A stretch of DNA of 49,526 bases. Origin: a phage. A program made the position numbers and the translations under genes. The notes under the pieces are model-generated. The model had not been told where the DNA came from. It did no database searches and saw nothing but the letters and a program-made list of their open reading frames with translations. The stretch lies in the sequence record PZ296778.1. One strand, 5' to 3'. This document shows positions 23,084 through 49,476 of the stretch, one piece after another. Position 1 is the stretch's first letter; each line of letters opens with the position of its first letter.

Positions 23084-23740
<657 letters not shown>

Positions 23741-23745
23741 TAAAC

Positions 23746-23766
23746 GGGGCGCTTGCGCCCCTTTTG
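23746..23766 (+). terminator. intrinsic terminator / hairpin after Erf gene
   Basis: GGGGCGC-ttg-CGCCCC hairpin followed by TTTTG; near-duplicate of the element at 8085-8104. Confidence 0.5.
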
Positions 23767-23783
23767 TCATAGGAGAAAACAAA

Positions 23784-24236
23784 ATGCACGTTATTACAGG
23801 TGAGATTCGAAAAGAGCCAAAAGTAAAGCAAATGCCTAACGGCAGCACGCTATATGTTATTGATCTTTCCGAGCGATACAAAGACCGAGAAGGAAATTGG
23901 CAGTATACAAACTATGTGTTTTTCTTTAACGCGAAAACAGACGGCCTGAATGGTTGGTATGCCGAGGCGTTCCAGGTAGGCAAGGTTGTTTCTGTTTCCT
24001 GCGATACCTTGCGAGTTGAAACGCGAGAATACAACGGAAAGATTTACAGCACCGTGCAGCCTGGCGGATTTGCAAACTTGCTATTTAGCCAGAGAGGTGA
24101 AAGCCAGCAACAATATCAGCAGCGAACGCAAGGAGGCTGGGGGCAACCACAACAGCAACAGCAACAAAATACTCAACAGCAGCCGCAGCAAAGCAATCAG
24201 CCTCCGATTGACTTTGACGATGATATACCATTCTGA
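23784..24236 (+). CDS. ssb: single-stranded DNA-binding protein
   Basis: OB-fold-like N-terminus, Gln/Gly-rich linker, C-terminal acidic tail DFDDDIPF; start at MHVITGE after RBS ggagaaaacaaa. Confidence 0.85.
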   Translation: MHVITGEIRKEPKVKQMPNGSTLYVIDLSERYKDREGNWQYTNYVFFFNAKTDGLNGWYAEAFQVGKVVSVSCDTLRVETREYNGKIYSTVQPGGFANLLFSQRGESQQQYQQRTQGGWGQPQQQQQQNTQQQPQQSNQPPIDFDDDIPF

Positions 24237-32879: not shown

Positions 32880-32973
32880 GGATAGTTATCATGTGGCGCT
32901 TGTTTGTTCTACCGTTACCCGTTATCATCGCTGTTACAGTTATGTACCATATAGTGATGAGATAGGTGGCAGA

Positions 32974-34089
32974 ATGAAAAATGTAAAAATTACAGATGAG
33001 CAATTCAAGATCGAACGGGCGGCGGGTAAGACATATAAACAGATCGCTCAAGAGTACGGAATGAATGTGAGAAGCGTCGAGCGTCGCGCGGCGCGACTTG
33101 CAAAGCAAGGCCAGGTATCCACCATTGGAGCGCCTGGTTTTGGCGTTCATGGTGAGTCAGTAATGACTGACAAAGAAGGCAACATAATCCTAAAGTGGAC
33201 TAAAACCAGCAAGGATAAAGAGCAATTAGAAGCATTAATGCGCGCAGCAATGGAGGCATTTAGCGAGGAAGTGCCGCGATTAGATCCGGTTCCATTACAG
33301 GAGCGCGACTATAACGAAACGCTTTCCTTGTATCCGATCTTTGACATGCACTTAGGCGCTATGGCCCATAAGCACGAATGCGGCGAAAATTGGGATACTG
33401 CCACGGCAGAGCGCGTTATGAATAACTTTATCGACTATGCTTTAATGTGCGCGCCGGATAGCGAAAAGGCTGTCATCCTGATTGGTGGCGATATGCTGCA
33501 TAGCGACGGCCTGGAGGCGGTTACACCTGCAAGCGGTCACGTACTGGATCAAGATAGTCGATATGCAAAATTGGTTTACGTTGCCATCCGTGCAATGCGA
33601 CGCGCAATCAATAAAATGTTGTTAAAGCATAAACATGTTGAAGTCCAGATCGTAGAGGGCAATCATGACCAATCAGGAATGATTTGGCTGCGCGCAGCAA
33701 TGGCGGCAGCATATGAAAACGAGCCGCGCGTTTACGTTGATGTTTCACCTCGCGTTGTGCACCACACGCAATACGGAAAAACTTTCCTTGCGTACCATCA
33801 CGGGCACACAGTGCGTAAACCGGAGACTTTGCTAATGATGTGCGCGTCAGATTGGCGGGAGGACTTCGGAAACTCAAAAACGATGTATGCGCACGTAGGG
33901 CACTGGCATCACCAGACCGTAACGGAAACGTCGCTTGGCATCGTGGAAGTACATAGCACCCTGGCGGCAAAAGACGCATACGCAGCGCGCGGTGGCTGGC
34001 GATCTCGACGCCGTGCGGCGGTTATCATTTACGACAAAGAGCATGGAGAGGTTGGGCGATTTGTTCACTATCCAGAAATGATGAATTGA
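32974..34089 (+). CDS. HTH-domain metallophosphoesterase (calcineurin-like)
   Basis: Start at MKNVKIT after RBS aggtgg; N-terminal HTH (KTYKQIAQEYGMNVRSVERRAARL); phosphoesterase motifs DMHLG, GGDMLHSDG, GNHDQ, HHGH, GHWHH. Confidence 0.6.
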   Translation: MKNVKITDEQFKIERAAGKTYKQIAQEYGMNVRSVERRAARLAKQGQVSTIGAPGFGVHGESVMTDKEGNIILKWTKTSKDKEQLEALMRAAMEAFSEEVPRLDPVPLQERDYNETLSLYPIFDMHLGAMAHKHECGENWDTATAERVMNNFIDYALMCAPDSEKAVILIGGDMLHSDGLEAVTPASGHVLDQDSRYAKLVYVAIRAMRRAINKMLLKHKHVEVQIVEGNHDQSGMIWLRAAMAAAYENEPRVYVDVSPRVVHHTQYGKTFLAYHHGHTVRKPETLLMMCASDWREDFGNSKTMYAHVGHWHHQTVTETSLGIVEVHSTLAAKDAYAARGGWRSRRRAAVIIYDKEHGEVGRFVHYPEMMN

Positions 34090-40565: not shown

Positions 40566-41131
40566 TCGTAATCAAATCGCGTCAAAATGATGATTGCCTT
40601 TGCAAATTTGATGAGAAAAGCAATCACGTTTAATCATTGGTTGCAGGGGAGATAGTGAAACCTTCCCCTCTTGCCTCACTTTTCCGCCTGGCTGTCAGCG
40701 GTTGTTGTCTTTTGTTCACCCCTGTTACCGATTTCAGGCGGCGTGTTTCCGCGCGGTTTTCCGGTGTATCGAAAACGGAAAAAACAAAAAAAATCCTTTA
40801 TAATACATTGAAAATAAAGATTATTTATTTATATATATCTATAATGTTTTCTTTTTGTTCTCACTGTTACAGTGCTTTTTGTTGGGTGTGGTGTTGTTGT
40901 GTGTTGGTATATATGGATAGTTGCGCGCGCGGCGGATTGCATATGTATATATACTTTTTCCGGCGGATTGCGTTAACAGCGTGAACAGAAAAATAACAGC
41001 CCTGAAATCAATAACTTGCGCATGATTTTGTAGTTTTTCGATATTGGTAACGTTTTGAATACAACAAAAACATTGACACGCACCAAATAGCTTTTATAAT
41101 GCGCCAACAGTCAACAACTGGAGGAAAGGAA
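40566..41131. promoter_or_regulatory. AT-rich non-coding control region between divergent early operons
   Basis: About 565 bp; A-tracts shared with 21200-21694, direct repeat CGGCGGATTGC twice, GT-rich tract, consensus promoter at 41073; the track ORF 40637-40984 is judged spurious. Confidence 0.5.
41073..41100 (+). promoter_or_regulatory. consensus sigma70 early promoter for the rightward early gene array
   Basis: -35 TTGACA, 16-bp spacer, -10 TATAAT; A-rich upstream tract; about 30 nt before RBS ggagga and ATG at 41132. Confidence 0.65.
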
Positions 41132-43316: not shown

Positions 43317-43336
43317 ATAGCACGAATTGTTAAAAC
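43317..43336 (+). promoter_or_regulatory. conserved intergenic motif copy F7 (variant)
   Basis: ATAGCACGAATTGTTAAAAC after stop TAA; followed by hairpin GTGGGGCC...GGCCCCAC. Confidence 0.6.
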
Positions 43337-43389
43337 TCAAATGTGGGGCCAGGTATAATGGCCCCACTTTCAACGAAGGAGATAAAACG

Positions 43390-43611
43390 ATGTACATTAA
43401 AAAGAAGATGAAATGCATTTCCGTTAACTATGCTTGCTCTGGCATGTTCAATCCTGGCGAAATCTATACGGCGCAAAAACTGAAATCATCAACCGGATCT
43501 TTTTACGTGAGCAATAGTAAGGGGCATCGCATGTTCCTGAACGGCGGCGAAGGCACTAAGGTTATGGCACACGCTATGGTAATGGCTGAATTTGAGGAAG
43601 TGAAACAATGA
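43390..43611 (+). CDS. hypothetical small protein, paralog A
   Basis: Start at MYIKKK after RBS aaggag; shares FxPGxxY...FYLNG...AEFEE pattern with the next ORF. Confidence 0.45.
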   Translation: MYIKKKMKCISVNYACSGMFNPGEIYTAQKLKSSTGSFYVSNSKGHRMFLNGGEGTKVMAHAMVMAEFEEVKQ

Positions 43612-43853
43612 TCATTGAAAACAATTTTCTTTGCGTTAAGAGCAATAGACCATTCTTCACGCCTGGCAAGGTGTACCAGGGCAAGAAGGACACAAGAGAT
43701 GGTCACTCTTATCATGTTCACTGCAACAACGGATACAAGTTTTACCTTAACGGCGAGAATGGAACAGAGATCGTTGCGTTTGAAAACGTAGTTGCCGAGT
43801 TTGAGCAGATTACAGACGCGGAATTTGAGGAAGTGAAAGATGAAAACAAATAA
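43608..43853 (+). CDS. hypothetical small protein, paralog B
   Basis: 81 aa; ATGA overlap with paralog A. Confidence 0.45.
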   Translation: MIIENNFLCVKSNRPFFTPGKVYQGKKDTRDGHSYHVHCNNGYKFYLNGENGTEIVAFENVVAEFEQITDAEFEEVKDENK

Positions 43854-44061
43854 GCGCGTCAAGCACAGGTTTACTGATAACCACGGCGACGCGATTGATG
43901 TATACAAGTTTGGCGATCGAGTTTTTATTGATGGCACGTTTGAAGGTGGGCGTAGGCCGGATTTTAGGTCGATACTTACCGTTGACCAAGTGCGCAAGCT
44001 GGCAGATAAGTTAAATGATCTGGCAGATGAAATAGAATACAAGCAAATCCATTTTAATTGA
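43840..44061 (+). CDS. hypothetical protein
   Basis: 73-aa ORF overlapping the upstream stop. Confidence 0.4.
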   Translation: MKTNKRVKHRFTDNHGDAIDVYKFGDRVFIDGTFEGGRRPDFRSILTVDQVRKLADKLNDLADEIEYKQIHFN

Positions 44062-44072
44062 TAGGTTTTATA

Positions 44073-44612
44073 ATGAAAAAATACACTTTCGAACTATGGG
44101 GCAAGAAGTACGAATTAATCACCAGCAAGCCGATTGTTATCGTTGACCTGGACGGCACACTATCGGACGGATCGCATCGTTTGCATTTGCTGCCAACTGA
44201 AAACTTGCACCTTACGGAATCGTGGAGCGAATTTAACAGGGCCGCCGCCGGAGATTCACCGATTAAAAGCACGATCGCGGTTATTAACGGTTTGTGGGTG
44301 TCGGGATTTGCCATCGTCATCTTGACCGGACGCAGCGACGAGGTGCGCTATGAAACCTGCAAATGGTTGAATGAGAGCGGCGTGAAGTTTGACGAAATCA
44401 TCATGCGCCGCCAGGAGGACAACCGAAAGGATACGGTTATTAAAGAAGAAGCCTTGCGCGCTATTGGCCTGGAAAATATTGTTTGCGCCTTTGACGATTC
44501 GCCGAACGTTGTTAAGCACTTCCGCAGCCTGGGAATCACAACCTATCAGGTCACGGAATACGACAAGCCGCACGCTCACCTGCAATCTCACGGCGTGGAG
44601 TGTTTAAAATGA
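44073..44612 (+). CDS. HAD-superfamily phosphatase (polynucleotide 3'-phosphatase / nucleotidase-like)
   Basis: HAD motif I VDLDGTL, motif II VILTGR, motif IV AFDDSPNVV; start at MKKYTF (track start is TTG). Confidence 0.55.
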   Translation: MKKYTFELWGKKYELITSKPIVIVDLDGTLSDGSHRLHLLPTENLHLTESWSEFNRAAAGDSPIKSTIAVINGLWVSGFAIVILTGRSDEVRYETCKWLNESGVKFDEIIMRRQEDNRKDTVIKEEALRAIGLENIVCAFDDSPNVVKHFRSLGITTYQVTEYDKPHAHLQSHGVECLK

Positions 44613-44770
44613 CTTGGTTGCTTTTAATCTTTGTCACAAGTTACAACTCCGCAGCTATTGAGTCGCAGGAGTTCCACGGCGAATCAAGATGCCAGGAAGC
44701 GCGAAAGCAAGTTGTTCTCCACATGTCAGATAGTGGGAAGGATGTAACAGCGTTATGCGTTCGTAAATAG
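44609..44770 (+). CDS. small membrane protein (ORF below track threshold)
   Basis: About 53 codons read by eye (MTWLLLIFVTSYNSAAIES...); ATGA overlap with HAD gene stop; stop TAG is part of motif copy F8. Coordinates approximate. Confidence 0.3.
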   Translation: MTWLLLIFVTSYNSAAIESQEFHGESRCQEARKQVVLHMSDSGKDVTALCVRK

Positions 44771-44787
44771 CACTTTTTGCAAAAAAC
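44767..44787 (+). promoter_or_regulatory. conserved intergenic motif copy F8 (variant)
   Basis: ATAGCACTTTTTGCAAAAAAC; followed by hairpin GGGCTT...AAGCCC and RBS. Confidence 0.55.
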
Positions 44788-44842
44788 AGATCATCGGGCT
44801 TGCTGTATAGTAAGCCCATCAACAACAAACGAGGATTAAATC

Positions 44843-45106
44843 ATGGCTAACAAGATCGAGTTTTTTAAAGCTGTAGACATTATCGACGGCGCGCCTAGCT
44901 TCTTTGCTATCCATTCTATTGACGGCAATGATATTGGGTACAACGTTATCCGTCGAGATGGAATATCAAAAATTAGTGACCTGGTAGGCCATATTGTGTC
45001 AAACGGGAAATGCGCATGGCCCGATTCGCCACGAGAGCCGCGCCGCCGCGACATGGTAGAGCCTGTTCTGCTTTACACTCTGGTAGTAGAGGGAGAAAAT
45101 AAATGA
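44843..45106 (+). CDS. hypothetical protein
   Basis: 87-aa ORF preceded by motif, hairpin and RBS gagga. Confidence 0.4.
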   Translation: MANKIEFFKAVDIIDGAPSFFAIHSIDGNDIGYNVIRRDGISKISDLVGHIVSNGKCAWPDSPREPRRRDMVEPVLLYTLVVEGENK

Positions 45107-45288
45107 TTTTGTTACTTGCTTTTTTGGTTGTTTTTCTTTACATTTCAGGCTTATTCACGTTCCGCGCGTTTGTGAAATATTCTGGCACGACAGACAAGGA
45201 CGATAAAATCGTTCTCGCTTTCTGGTTTGTTTGGGTGTGGTTAGCAATTTACGAGATCATCAGAGACAAACAGAAATTTGAGTGGTGA
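45103..45288 (+). CDS. small membrane protein (two predicted TM helices)
   Basis: 61 aa; two hydrophobic segments; ATGA overlap with upstream gene. Confidence 0.4.
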   Translation: MILLLAFLVVFLYISGLFTFRAFVKYSGTTDKDDKIVLAFWFVWVWLAIYEIIRDKQKFEW

Positions 45289-45347
45289 TTCTTGCTATGG
45301 CGCATTCATGCAGTGCGCCATGTTGAGAAAACCTAAAGGGGGAGACG

Positions 45348-45497
45348 ATGCGTAACTTTGAAAAAATCATTACCAAAAAGAAGCGTCGCGGGTACGATGA
45401 GCATGTGGAGCTTGTGAAAAAGCAACGCAAGAAGCGCAACGAAGACAAGAAGCGCGGGAAAAAATTTAATGCGATTTTTCGCTATGGAGATCATTAA
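45348..45497 (+). CDS. small basic protein (ORF below track threshold)
   Basis: About 49 codons read by eye (MRNFEKIITKKKRRGYDEHVELVKKQRKKRNEDKKRGKKF...); RBS aaagggggag; ends just before the kinase start. Coordinates approximate. Confidence 0.35.
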   Translation: MRNFEKIITKKKRRGYDEHVELVKKQRKKRNEDKKRGKKFNAIFRYGDH

Positions 45498-45499
45498 TC

Positions 45500-46090
45500 A
45501 TGAAACGAGACATTATCATCCTTAATGGGCCGCCAGGTTGCGGGAAGGACACTATTGCAGCTTACCTAACGGGCCATCGTTACCCAGCGGTTAAGGCGTC
45601 ATTCAAACAGCCGATGTTCGATATTGCGTTTTCCATGCTTGGCCCGACTCGATATGATGAGTTTATTGACCTGTACAACGACCGAGATCAAAAAGAAAAG
45701 CCTCAAGTTATCTTAGGCGGCAAGTCACCTCGACAATTCATGATCTGGATTAGCGAGGATGTAATGAAGCCAGTCTTTGGGGATCACTATTTCGGGCGTC
45801 GAATGGTTGAAGAGATTCACGAGATGTACCGAGATTTAGCGGTTGTGATCAGCGATGGAGGATTCCCCGAAGAAGTCAAGCCGCTTGTTAAGGCAGGGCA
45901 TGAGGTGCATATTTGCCGATTGCATCGCGACGGCTTCACGTTTGCTGGCGATTCGAGAGACTACATTGACCTGAGCGGTTATCACTATCGAATCCATCAC
46001 TATGACTTCCACTTGCAGGACGGCAAGCCGGAACTGGCTGTAAGCGAGATCGTCAATGCAGTCAAATGGAAGCACACACAGATTAAATAG
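45500..46090 (+). CDS. P-loop kinase, dNMP-kinase-like
   Basis: 196 aa; Walker A GPPGCGKDT with GKDT as in T4-type dNMP kinases; stop TAG is part of motif copy F9. Confidence 0.5.
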   Translation: MKRDIIILNGPPGCGKDTIAAYLTGHRYPAVKASFKQPMFDIAFSMLGPTRYDEFIDLYNDRDQKEKPQVILGGKSPRQFMIWISEDVMKPVFGDHYFGRRMVEEIHEMYRDLAVVISDGGFPEEVKPLVKAGHEVHICRLHRDGFTFAGDSRDYIDLSGYHYRIHHYDFHLQDGKPELAVSEIVNAVKWKHTQIK

Positions 46091-49448: not shown

Positions 49449-49454
49449 AAATTA

Positions 49455-49476
49455 CCCGCCGCACGGCGGGTTTTTT
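49455..49476 (+). terminator. intrinsic terminator at window end
   Basis: CCCGCCG-cac-GGCGGG hairpin followed by T6. Confidence 0.75.

What the first reader, a model, noticed from the sequence alone, without database searches (positions are those of the whole stretch)
44073..46090. Separate HAD phosphatase and dNMP-kinase-like genes in the rightward early array
The HAD protein has motifs typical of the phosphatase domain of polynucleotide kinase-phosphatases and of nucleotidases (DLDGTL, FDDS). Five genes downstream is a P-loop kinase with the GKDT signature of T4-type dNMP kinases. Together they could form a split end-healing activity against anticodon-nuclease-type defence, or a nucleotide-pool remodelling pair. 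No RNA ligase was recognised in the window.
Basis: partly seen in the sequence, partly recalled or inferred. Interest (0 to 1): 0.45.

Follow-up and report, generated by a model that had tools for sequence, protein, structure and literature searches.

The report
Phage dNMP kinase with partner phosphatase
A T1-like coliphage carries a deoxynucleotide kinase already shown to work in close relatives, plus an untested partner phosphatase that databases mislabel "polynucleotide kinase"; the two most likely recycle nucleotides and are not an RNA-repair kit.

Summary
The window is a near-complete Warwickvirus (T1-like) genome.

**HAD (44073-44612).** It belongs to the PNKP 3'-phosphatase clade and keeps all catalytic residues. 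It has no kinase domain, so the public "polynucleotide kinase" label is wrong.

**Linkage.** HAD precedes DNK in 68 of 80 related loci, often directly adjacent. Rare natural fusions exist.

**Context.** Neighbours are always DNA or nucleotide metabolism genes. A T4-like phage that already has PseT and RNA ligase carries this HAD as well.

**Verdict.** The split end-healing reading is not supported. The nucleotide-pool reading is supported for the kinase.

**Open question.** The HAD's substrate is unknown. Rao1 carries an ortholog yet stays Kongming-sensitive, so the HAD is not an effective T5 Dmp-like dAMP phosphatase.

This is a new member of a known kind, of modest interest.

The parts
44073..44612 (+). 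Stand-alone HAD phosphatase of the PNKP 3'-phosphatase clade (179 aa); it has no kinase domain
   Evidence: Pfam PF25109 HAD_PNKP E 4.7e-21. phrog_415 E 3.8e-65. BLASTP to the T4 Pnk phosphatase domain gives 27% over 164 aa, E 1e-10. Top Foldseek PDB hits are 5uj0, 2ia5, 1ltq and 4xrp. T4 residues D165, D167, R176, D187, S211, R213, R246, D254, K258, D277 and D278 map to D25, D27, R36, D61, T85, R87, R112, D120, K124, D141 and D142.
45500..46090 (+). T4 gp1-type deoxynucleoside monophosphate kinase (DNK), 196 aa
44609..44770 (+). Small intervening ORF (53 aa) with a hydrophobic N-terminus; it occupies the place where relatives carry C-terminal extensions of the HAD
   Evidence: (phrog_5579)
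44843..45106 (+). Intervening ORF, 87 aa, unknown function
   Evidence: phrog_25318
45103..45288 (+). Intervening ORF, 61 aa, predicted membrane protein
   Evidence: phrog_9755
45348..45497 (+). Intervening ORF, 49 aa, very basic; it ends 3 nt before the kinase start
   Evidence: (weak Pfam Phage_1_1 hit, E 0.003, below cutoff)
41073..41100 (+). Consensus sigma-70 promoter-like site (TTGACA-16-TATAAT, 12/12) at the head of the rightward array
   Evidence: The total count of promoter-like sites is not above the shuffle expectation; only this one is a perfect match.
49454..49471 (+). Strong intrinsic terminator-like hairpin with a T-run, closing the rightward array before terS
32893..34089 (+). 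HTH plus calcineurin-type metallophosphoesterase (phrog_704, labelled 'DNA repair exonuclease'). It is 10 kb away in this window but directly upstream of HAD-DNK in Rao1, VAC2, KL and Yersinia phage vB_YenM_12.
   Evidence: Motifs D-x-H, GD-x-x-H, GNHD, HGH and GH-x-HH are invariant in alignment A4.

Best explanation
The two genes are a co-transcribed deoxynucleotide-metabolism pair, not a nucleic-acid end-healing enzyme.

The P-loop protein is a broad-specificity dNMP kinase (DNK). It converts 5'-dNMPs, which T1-like phages obtain by degrading the host chromosome, into dNDPs. Host Ndk then makes dNTPs for phage DNA synthesis. As a side effect, the DNK is the phage activity that the Kongming defence hijacks to make its dITP alarm signal.

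The HAD protein is a Mg-dependent aspartyl-phosphate phosphomonoesterase of the PNKP 3'-phosphatase clade. My commitment is that it removes 3'(2')-phosphates from small breakdown products (3'-dNMPs, nucleoside 3',5'-bisphosphates, short 3'-phosphorylated oligonucleotides). Those products then become 5'-dNMPs, or exonuclease substrates, that feed the kinase.

Shown: family membership of both proteins, their genomic linkage, and (in the literature, on homologs) the dNMP kinase activity. Inferred: that the two act in one pathway, and the HAD's preference for 3'-phosphates on small substrates.

For: HAD. All T4 Pnkp phosphatase catalytic and structural residues are conserved. Its closest sequence and fold relatives are T4 Pnkp and Pnkp1 phosphatase domains. 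The T4 phosphatase accepts 3'-dTMP mononucleotide (PMC3592404).

Linkage. HAD lies upstream of DNK on the same strand in 68 of 80 IMG/VR loci, and 15 of these have gaps of 40 nt or less. The genes overlap by 4 nt in KL and VAC2. In T1 only an HNH endonuclease separates them. Natural HAD-DNK fusions exist: P0260, P0387 and P0266. The pair occupies different genome positions in different genera.

Context. The HAD is coupled to nrdB in FL15, which also has PseT and RNA ligase. In KpV48 it sits between exonuclease/endonuclease VII and a dNTP-pyrophosphohydrolase-like gene. T1 and TLS degrade host DNA and reuse its nucleotides (PMC11447400).
Against: No source of 3'-phosphorylated deoxynucleotides is known in T1-infected cells; the usual nucleases leave 3'-OH and 5'-phosphate. 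One of the two T4 arginines proposed to hold the penultimate phosphodiester is conserved (R246 -> R112) and the other is not (R279 -> S143). That fits neither a purely mononucleotide nor a purely polynucleotide substrate. The family-specific cap insert (residues 29-62) is modelled at pLDDT below 50, so substrate access cannot be read from the model. Each gene also occurs without the other: about 10 of 80 loci lack the HAD, and KpV48 and FL15 have the HAD with no adjacent DNK. Synteny within Drexlerviridae could partly reflect common descent. Deleting Rao1 dnk had no measurable fitness cost, so the pathway is dispensable in the laboratory.
Confidence: 0.4

Rival explanations
1. The HAD is a T5 Dmp-like 5'-deoxynucleotidase. 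It dephosphorylates 5'-dNMPs, possibly only some of them or non-canonical ones such as dIMP, dUMP or m6-dAMP. That would balance the pool the DNK acts on and blunt nucleotide-sensing defences such as Kongming, or the PUA-Cal-HAD system that senses m6-dAMP. On this reading the pair is the published DNK-Dmp module.
For: T5 Dmp has the same DxDGT..HR..T-x-R..K..DD motif set, and its catalytic D22 is the motif-I nucleophile. T5 Dmp and the window HAD both fall in phrog_415. hhalign of A2 against T5 Dmp gives E 2e-5 over 143 columns. Both have a cap insert of about 25 residues where T4 Pnk has 11. Dmp homologs are reported to co-occur with DNKs (PMC12967843). Host-DNA-derived m6-dAMP is a known alarm signal.
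Against: Rao1 carries an ortholog of the window HAD (gp57, 58% identical) right next to its DNK. Even so, Rao1 is Kongming-sensitive, is rescued by T5 Dmp in trans, and shows rising dAMP during infection. By BLASTP the window HAD matches T5 Dmp only at motif I (E 0.01), against E 1e-10 for T4 Pnk. T5 Dmp is absent from the top 50 viral fold matches. Co-transcription, and fusion in some phages, of a 5'-dNMP phosphatase with a 5'-dNMP kinase would be a futile cycle. T5 avoids that by separating the two in time.
Confidence: 0.22
2. The HAD is a DNA 3'-phosphatase that cleans blocked 3'-phosphate ends on phage or host DNA, so that polymerases, exonucleases or the phage recombination machinery can use them. 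On this reading it acts independently of the DNK, and the adjacency is historical.
For: Its closest relatives are polynucleotide 3'-phosphatases. The R246 equivalent (R112) is retained. In KpV48 it sits beside exonuclease and endonuclease VII. In relatives it lies next to a metallophosphoesterase labelled 'DNA repair exonuclease'. The HAD occurs without a DNK in some phages.
Against: Start/stop overlap with the DNK, and independent HAD-DNK fusions in two lineages only 37% identical to each other, argue for a shared pathway. Coupling to nrdB in FL15 points to nucleotides rather than DNA ends. The longer, highly conserved cap insert is unusual for HADs that act on macromolecules. That last point rests on general knowledge of HAD cap classes and was not tested here.
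Confidence: 0.18
3. The HAD (3'-phosphatase) and the P-loop protein (5'-kinase) together form a split polynucleotide kinase-phosphatase. It heals RNA or tRNA ends cut by PrrC/RloC-type anticodon nucleases, and a host ligase seals them.
For: The HAD is of the PNKP phosphatase clade. HAD-kinase fusions have the phosphatase-then-kinase order seen in mammalian PNKP (the PNKP domain order is from my own knowledge). Public records label the HAD 'polynucleotide kinase'.
Confidence: 0.04

Closest known systems
Phage dNMP kinases (DNK): T4 gp1 (PDB 1DEK/1DEL), T5 Dnk, Rao1 gp58, KarlJaspers and vB_KpnS-VAC2 DNKs
   Same: The same PHROG (139), GKDT P-loop and two-domain fold with a helical NMP pocket. 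Most gp1 pocket residues are conserved. The window kinase is 81% identical to the KarlJaspers DNK and 45% to Rao1 DNK, which have experimental support as dNMP kinases and Kongming triggers.
   Different: About 45 residues shorter than gp1; it lacks gp1's insert at roughly residues 96-131. gp1 R177 is Gly121 here and gp1 K37 is Phe40, with an invariant K36 nearby. Substrate range has not been measured for this protein.
T4 polynucleotide kinase-phosphatase (PseT) and bacterial Pnkp1, phosphatase domains
   Same: DxDGT acylphosphatase. All T4 residues needed for 3'-phosphatase activity are conserved. These are the best sequence and structural matches.
   Different: The window HAD is stand-alone, with no Pnk-type kinase domain and no ligase partner. 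It has a 14-residue longer, highly conserved insert (HRLHLLP..LTESWSEFN) between R36 and D61, R279 replaced by Ser, and an extra N-terminal beta-hairpin.
T5 Dmp (deoxynucleoside-5'-monophosphatase, anti-Kongming) and the published DNK-Dmp module
   Same: The same PHROG (415), the same four HAD motifs, a cap insert of similar length, and co-occurrence with a DNK.
   Different: Only remote similarity: BLASTP detects motif I alone. The Rao1 ortholog does not protect against Kongming. Here the phosphatase and kinase are co-transcribed, whereas T5 expresses Dmp from first-step-transfer DNA before dnk enters the cell.
Mammalian PNKP (FHA-phosphatase-kinase)
   Same: A HAD phosphatase followed by a P-loop kinase. 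That is the gene order here and the domain order in the rare fusions P0260, P0387 and P0266. The PNKP architecture is from my own knowledge.
   Different: The kinase moiety belongs to a different P-loop kinase family, gp1-type NMP kinase rather than Pnk-type 5'-OH kinase.

Membership tests
T4 gp1-type dNMP kinase (DNK, phrog_139) | Walker A loop of the G-x-x-x-x-GKDT type | tested here: met
   GPPGCGKDT at residues 10-18. K16 and D17 are each 96% conserved, and T18 79%, in 146 representatives.
T4 gp1-type dNMP kinase (DNK, phrog_139) | Profile-level homology to gp1 beyond the P-loop | tested here: met
   The window kinase (E 4.8e-51) and T4 gp1 (E 1.8e-65) match phrog_139 over the same span, 81/83-261. 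hhalign of A1 against gp1 gives 85% probability over 75 columns, including the P38, DR and L-x-GKSP motifs. A plain HMM search of PDB sequences did not reach 1DEK.
T4 gp1-type dNMP kinase (DNK, phrog_139) | Two-domain fold: P-loop core plus a helical NMP-binding domain | tested here: met
T4 gp1-type dNMP kinase (DNK, phrog_139) | dNMP phosphate, sugar and base contacts of gp1 (K37, R68, R132, R177, M135, W152, D175, E181; PMC10653934 Table 2) | tested here: inconclusive
   R68->R62 (91%), R132->R78 (99%), M135->M/L81, W152->F98 (93%), D175->D119 (99%) and E181->E125 (100%) are conserved. R177->G121 and K37->F40 are not, though invariant K36 and R153 lie nearby. The alignment is remote, so individual equivalences are approximate.
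T4 gp1-type dNMP kinase (DNK, phrog_139) | ATP-dependent dNMP -> dNDP activity | not testable with these tools
   Published for homologs. Rao1 DNK (45% identical) was tested in vitro on dAMP, dGMP, dCMP and dTMP. The KarlJaspers (81%) and VAC2 (44%) DNKs trigger Kongming in vivo.
T4 Pnk-type polynucleotide 5'-kinase | Homology to the Pnk kinase domain beyond the P-loop | tested here: not met
T4 Pnk-type polynucleotide 5'-kinase | Conserved general-base Asp after strand 2 (T4 D35), needed to activate a 5'-OH acceptor (from my own knowledge of Wang & Shuman 2002) | tested here: inconclusive
   The only acidic residue in the corresponding stretch, D41, is variable (E 21%, D 19%, K 12%). No reliable alignment to Pnk exists there.
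PNKP-type HAD 3'-phosphatase (Pfam PF25109) | Pfam model above the gathering score | tested here: met
   75.9 bits against a cutoff of 27.6, E 4.7e-21, covering 3-140 of 143 profile positions.
PNKP-type HAD 3'-phosphatase (Pfam PF25109) | Catalytic and structural residues of the T4 Pnkp phosphatase (D165, D167, R176, D187, S211, R213, D254, K258, D277, D278) | tested here: met
   All are conserved, as D25, D27, R36, D61, T85, R87, D120, K124, D141 and D142.
PNKP-type HAD 3'-phosphatase (Pfam PF25109) | Arg pair holding the penultimate phosphodiester of a polynucleotide (T4 R246 and R279; from my own knowledge of Zhu et al. 2007; PDB 2ia5) | tested here: inconclusive
   R246->R112 is conserved. 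R279->S143 is not; this Ser is invariant in the family.
PNKP-type HAD 3'-phosphatase (Pfam PF25109) | Partnered with a Pnk-type 5'-kinase and an RNA or DNA ligase (the end-healing and sealing system) | tested here: not met
   There is no Pnk-type kinase and no ligase in the genome. FL15 carries this HAD in addition to PseT and Rnl.
PNKP-type HAD 3'-phosphatase (Pfam PF25109) | 3'-phosphomonoesterase activity | not testable with these tools
   I found no biochemistry on any stand-alone member from T1-like phages.
T5 Dmp-type dNMP 5'-phosphatase (anti-Kongming) | Homology to T5 Dmp across the HAD domain | tested here: inconclusive
   Both are in phrog_415. hhalign gives E 2e-5 with all motifs aligned. 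BLASTP finds motif I only, E 0.01, and T5 Dmp is not among the top 50 BFVD fold hits.
T5 Dmp-type dNMP 5'-phosphatase (anti-Kongming) | Depletes dAMP and protects a DNK-encoding phage from Kongming | not testable with these tools
   Published data argue against it. Rao1 encodes an ortholog (58% identical) yet is Kongming-sensitive, accumulates dAMP, and needs T5 Dmp in trans.

The most novel reading that the evidence does not exclude
The HAD and the DNK, together in many relatives with the adjacent HTH-metallophosphoesterase (phrog_704), form a dedicated three-step line for recycling host nucleic acid: nuclease/phosphodiesterase, then 3'-phosphatase, then dNMP kinase. In effect this would be end-healing at the level of mononucleotides, built from a PNKP-type phosphatase and a gp1-type kinase that some phages have fused into one protein. 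If true, it would identify the long-missing T1/TLS functions for host-DNA reuse and define a second, non-homologous phosphatase-kinase architecture.
Probability: 0.15. Interest if true: 0.6.

Novelty: new member of a known kind. Interest (0 to 1): 0.3.

Why it matters
**Annotation.** Hundreds of T1-like, Webervirus, Kagunavirus and other phage records call this HAD a "polynucleotide kinase" or "3'-phosphatase, 5'-polynucleotide kinase". It has no kinase domain. Its PHROG (415) also contains T5 Dmp, a proven dNMP 5'-phosphatase. The neighbouring gene is the real kinase, and it acts on dNMPs, not on polynucleotides.

**Defence biology.** This kinase is the type of phage enzyme that Kongming immunity exploits. 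The adjacent phosphatase looks like the obvious counter-measure, yet published Rao1 data indicate it is not one. That leaves a defined, testable gap: what does a PNKP-type phosphatase do next to, and sometimes fused to, a dNMP kinase?

**Phage physiology.** The answer bears on how T1-like phages reuse host DNA, which the TLS re-annotation paper lists as unassigned.

Tried and rejected
- **PDB sequence searches.** phmmer and an HMM profile of the kinase against PDB sequences found only P-loop matches and missed 1DEK. Fold search and PHROG comparison were needed.
- **Curated families.** Pfam and NCBIfam have no model that captures the kinase.
- **HAD as T5 Dmp ortholog.** I considered this after finding both in phrog_415. 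I downgraded it because BLASTP, Foldseek and the Rao1 phenotype disagree.
- **Fusions.** The fusion-protein search found only three clusters, so fusions are rare.
- **Cap insert.** AF2 models it at pLDDT below 50, so I drew no conclusion on substrate access.
- **Promoter and terminator scan.** Totals are not above shuffle expectation. Only the single 12/12 promoter and one strong terminator are worth noting.
- **Numbering error.** My first conservation table was mis-numbered by two residues because hmmalign --trim removed the N-terminus. It was discarded and redone.
- **Failed or uninformative calls.** One hhalign call through the tool failed and was rerun locally. The retron Eco2 and PUA-Cal-HAD papers had nothing on this gene pair.
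- **Unread figures.** Kongming Fig. S3 and S17, on Drexlerviridae sensitivity and which HADs were counted as Dmp homologs, are images and could not be read.
Full report
**Observation.** The window is an almost complete T1-like genome of Drexlerviridae, Tempevirinae, Warwickvirus. It is 99.6% identical to phage tinuso and 99.4% to AV105 across the region, and it is permuted to start at terS. ORF 44073..44612 (179 aa) carries DLDGTL at residues 25-30 and FDDS at 140-143. ORF 45500..46090 (196 aa) carries GPPGCGKDT. Four small ORFs separate them. Both lie in one rightward unit, between a perfect consensus promoter at 41073-41100 and a strong terminator at 49454-49471. I found no ligase and no tRNA genes.

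**The kinase.** Pfam, NCBIfam and PDB sequence searches see only the Walker A motif. Three independent lines place it with T4 gp1, the dNMP kinase.
- It matches phrog_139 (E 4.8e-51) over the same profile span as authentic T4 gp1 (E 1.8e-65). T4 Pnk's kinase domain goes to other PHROGs.
- A profile of 25 homologs aligns to gp1 over 75 columns, including motifs beyond the P-loop. It aligns to T4 Pnk over only 24 P-loop columns.

I mapped the gp1 pocket residues listed in PMC10653934 Table 2 through a full-length alignment. The equivalents of R68, R132, M135, W152, D175, E181 and D204 are R62, R78, M81, F98, D119, E125 and D151. These are 86-100% conserved (M81 counted as M or L) in 146 diverse representatives. 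R177 and K37 are not conserved. The family is large, with about 4,200 clusters at 50% identity.

**Experimental support for the kinase.** The Kongming study (bioRxiv 10.1101/2024.12.20.629578) shows that phage DNKs trigger that defence.
- Its supplement gives the tested sequences.
- The KarlJaspers DNK is 81% identical to the window kinase.
- Rao1 DNK is 45% identical.
- The VAC2 DNK is 44% identical.
- Rao1 DNK phosphorylates dAMP, dGMP, dCMP and dTMP in vitro. A K15A mutant is inactive as a trigger, and deleting the gene lowers dATP.

The kinase is therefore a known enzyme type, with experimental support in close relatives.

**The HAD.** It exceeds the Pfam HAD_PNKP threshold (75.9 bits against 27.6). 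It matches T4 Pnk and Pnkp1 phosphatase domains by sequence and by fold. It keeps every T4 residue required for phosphatase activity. It has no kinase domain, so the widespread labels "polynucleotide kinase" and "3'-phosphatase, 5'-polynucleotide kinase" are carry-overs from the T4 PseT hit; the T1 record's own note says as much.

It differs from T4 in three ways. It has a 14-residue longer, highly conserved insert between R36 and D61. It has Ser in place of R279. It has an N-terminal beta-hairpin. The insert is poorly modelled.

T5 Dmp, a proven dNMP 5'-phosphatase, is also a DxDGT HAD and sits in the same PHROG, 415. It has a cap insert of similar length. Direct similarity to it is much weaker than to T4 Pnk.

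**Linkage.** HAD lies upstream of DNK on the same strand in 68 of 80 related viral loci. The gap is 40 nt or less in 15 of these and 41-200 nt in 15 more. About 10 loci truly lack a HAD. The genes overlap by 4 nt in the Weberviruses KL and VAC2. In T1 an HNH homing endonuclease sits between them. The pair appears in different genome positions in different genera: before terS here and in T1, before the holin in Webervirus and Rao1, and before the portal gene in Yersinia phage vB_YenM_12.

Three natural fusion proteins (HAD then DNK) exist in two lineages that are 37% identical to each other. One lineage is found on contigs of an unrelated phage type.

Where the HAD occurs without the DNK, its neighbours are still nucleotide or DNA metabolism genes. 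In the T4-like phage FL15 it overlaps the nrdB stop codon, and FL15 also has a full PseT and an RNA ligase. In KpV48 it sits after exonuclease and endonuclease VII and before a gene matching a dNTP pyrophosphohydrolase PHROG.

**Mechanism.** The DNK step is well supported. T1-like phages degrade host DNA and reuse the nucleotides (PMC11447400). The DNK phosphorylates the resulting dNMPs, and host Ndk completes dNTP synthesis.

The HAD's role is inferred. I favour a 3'(2')-phosphatase acting on small breakdown products that feed the kinase, for four reasons:
- its nearest relatives are 3'-phosphatases;
- the T4 enzyme accepts 3'-dTMP;
- coupling and fusion to a mononucleotide kinase suggest one pathway;
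- its neighbours are nucleotide enzymes.

The main weakness is that no source of 3'-phosphorylated deoxynucleotides is known in these infections.

The attractive alternative is that the pair is the published DNK-Dmp module, with the HAD acting as anti-Kongming. Rao1 contradicts this. Rao1 has a 58%-identical HAD ortholog next to its DNK. It remains Kongming-sensitive, accumulates dAMP, and is rescued by T5 Dmp in trans. A selective 5'-nucleotidase, for example one acting on modified dNMPs, is not excluded.

A stand-alone DNA 3'-end repair role also remains possible.

The split RNA end-healing idea is the least supported.

**Novelty.** Earlier literature already notes the pair descriptively. 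PMC13164509 suggests "enhancing nucleotide supply". Commentary on Kongming calls DNK and Dmp a co-evolved module. This work adds five points:
- the T1-type "PNK" is a PNKP-clade HAD distinct from T5-type Dmp;
- the kinase is not Pnk-like;
- the two genes are linked across families and occasionally fused;
- they recur with an HTH-metallophosphoesterase;
- published Rao1 data argue against an anti-Kongming role.

The finding is a new member of a known kind. The kinase side is ordinary. The HAD's substrate is an open but modest question.

Noticed in passing
window 44600-44770; relatives P0121, P0136, P0154: Close homologs of the HAD (96-97% identical in the core) carry swappable C-terminal tails. 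One is a ~57-aa small domain (ITKRARFVGSKD...DGDFVNA), one is a Cys4 insert (KPKIECEGEHCFSVVDGKCLRCG), and P0136 (264 aa) has both. The window version stops right after the core and is followed by an unrelated 53-aa ORF with a hydrophobic N-terminus.
   Followed up: partly
window 23733-24236 (SSB); kinase homologs such as P0055, P0084, P0094, P0109: 23 of 266 kinase-family proteins end in an acidic tail, ...DDIPW or ...DEIPW. This resembles the SSB C-terminal tip, and the window phage's own SSB ends in ...DFDDDIPF. It suggests that some DNKs are tethered to the SSB interaction network at the replication fork. The window kinase lacks the tail.
   Followed up: partly
window 32893-34089 (+); L002:845-1975, L092:1779-2969, L094:1342-2472, L095:36693-37826: phrog_704, labelled 'DNA repair exonuclease', has an N-terminal HTH followed by a complete calcineurin-type metallophosphoesterase motif set (D-x-H, GD-x-x-H, GNHD, HGH, GH-x-HH). 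It forms a contiguous trio with HAD and DNK in Rao1, VAC2, KL and Yersinia phage vB_YenM_12. In this window it lies 10 kb away, just before the holin. It is a candidate for the unidentified T1 host-DNA degradation function.
   Followed up: partly
phrog_415 (database label); L093:124-858 (T5 dmp): PHROG 415 is labelled 'polynucleotide kinase', yet it contains T5 Dmp, a biochemically proven deoxynucleoside-5'-monophosphatase (E 3.6e-57, full length). None of the members examined has a kinase domain. Pfam has no hit for T5 Dmp.
   Followed up: yes
L091:3998-4474 (Escherichia phage FL15, Krischvirus): A T4-like phage carries a stand-alone HAD of the window type (45.6% identical) whose start overlaps the nrdB stop codon by 4 nt. 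It carries this in addition to a canonical pseT and an RNA ligase a few kb downstream.
   Followed up: partly
L090:3483-3797 (Klebsiella phage KpV48 gp34): The 104-aa gene immediately after the stand-alone HAD in this Drulisvirus matches a PHROG annotated dATP/dGTP pyrophosphohydrolase (phrog_801, E 4.8e-47). It also matches PHROGs labelled 'endolysin; inhibits RNA polymerase', so the annotations conflict.
   Followed up: no
phage records MG065687, MG065669, MG065685 and others ('Campylobacter phage A136, A123, A112a...'): About 20 records named Campylobacter jejuni phages are 78-92% identical at the DNA level to this coliphage region. T1-like phages are notorious laboratory contaminants, so these are probably contaminant or mislabelled T1-like coliphage genomes.
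   Followed up: no
L003:3001-3495 (phage T1 ST63): In T1 itself an HNH homing endonuclease is inserted exactly between the HAD ('pnk', ST64) and the kinase (ST62). This is consistent with the two genes having been adjacent ancestrally.
   Followed up: partly
window 45348-45497 (+): The 49-aa, highly basic ORF directly upstream of the kinase gives a weak, sub-threshold Pfam hit to T7 gene 1.1 protein (E 0.003, 18.4 bits against a cutoff of 21).
   Followed up: no
window 43327-43611, 43608-43853 and 43840-44061 (+): Several consecutive small ORFs upstream of the HAD share a loose pattern (F.PG..Y......G..Y.V....G..F....G, then an acidic EFE tail). The pattern resembles the ~57-aa tail fused to the HAD in relatives, which suggests a family of small duplicated domains in the early array.
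   Followed up: no
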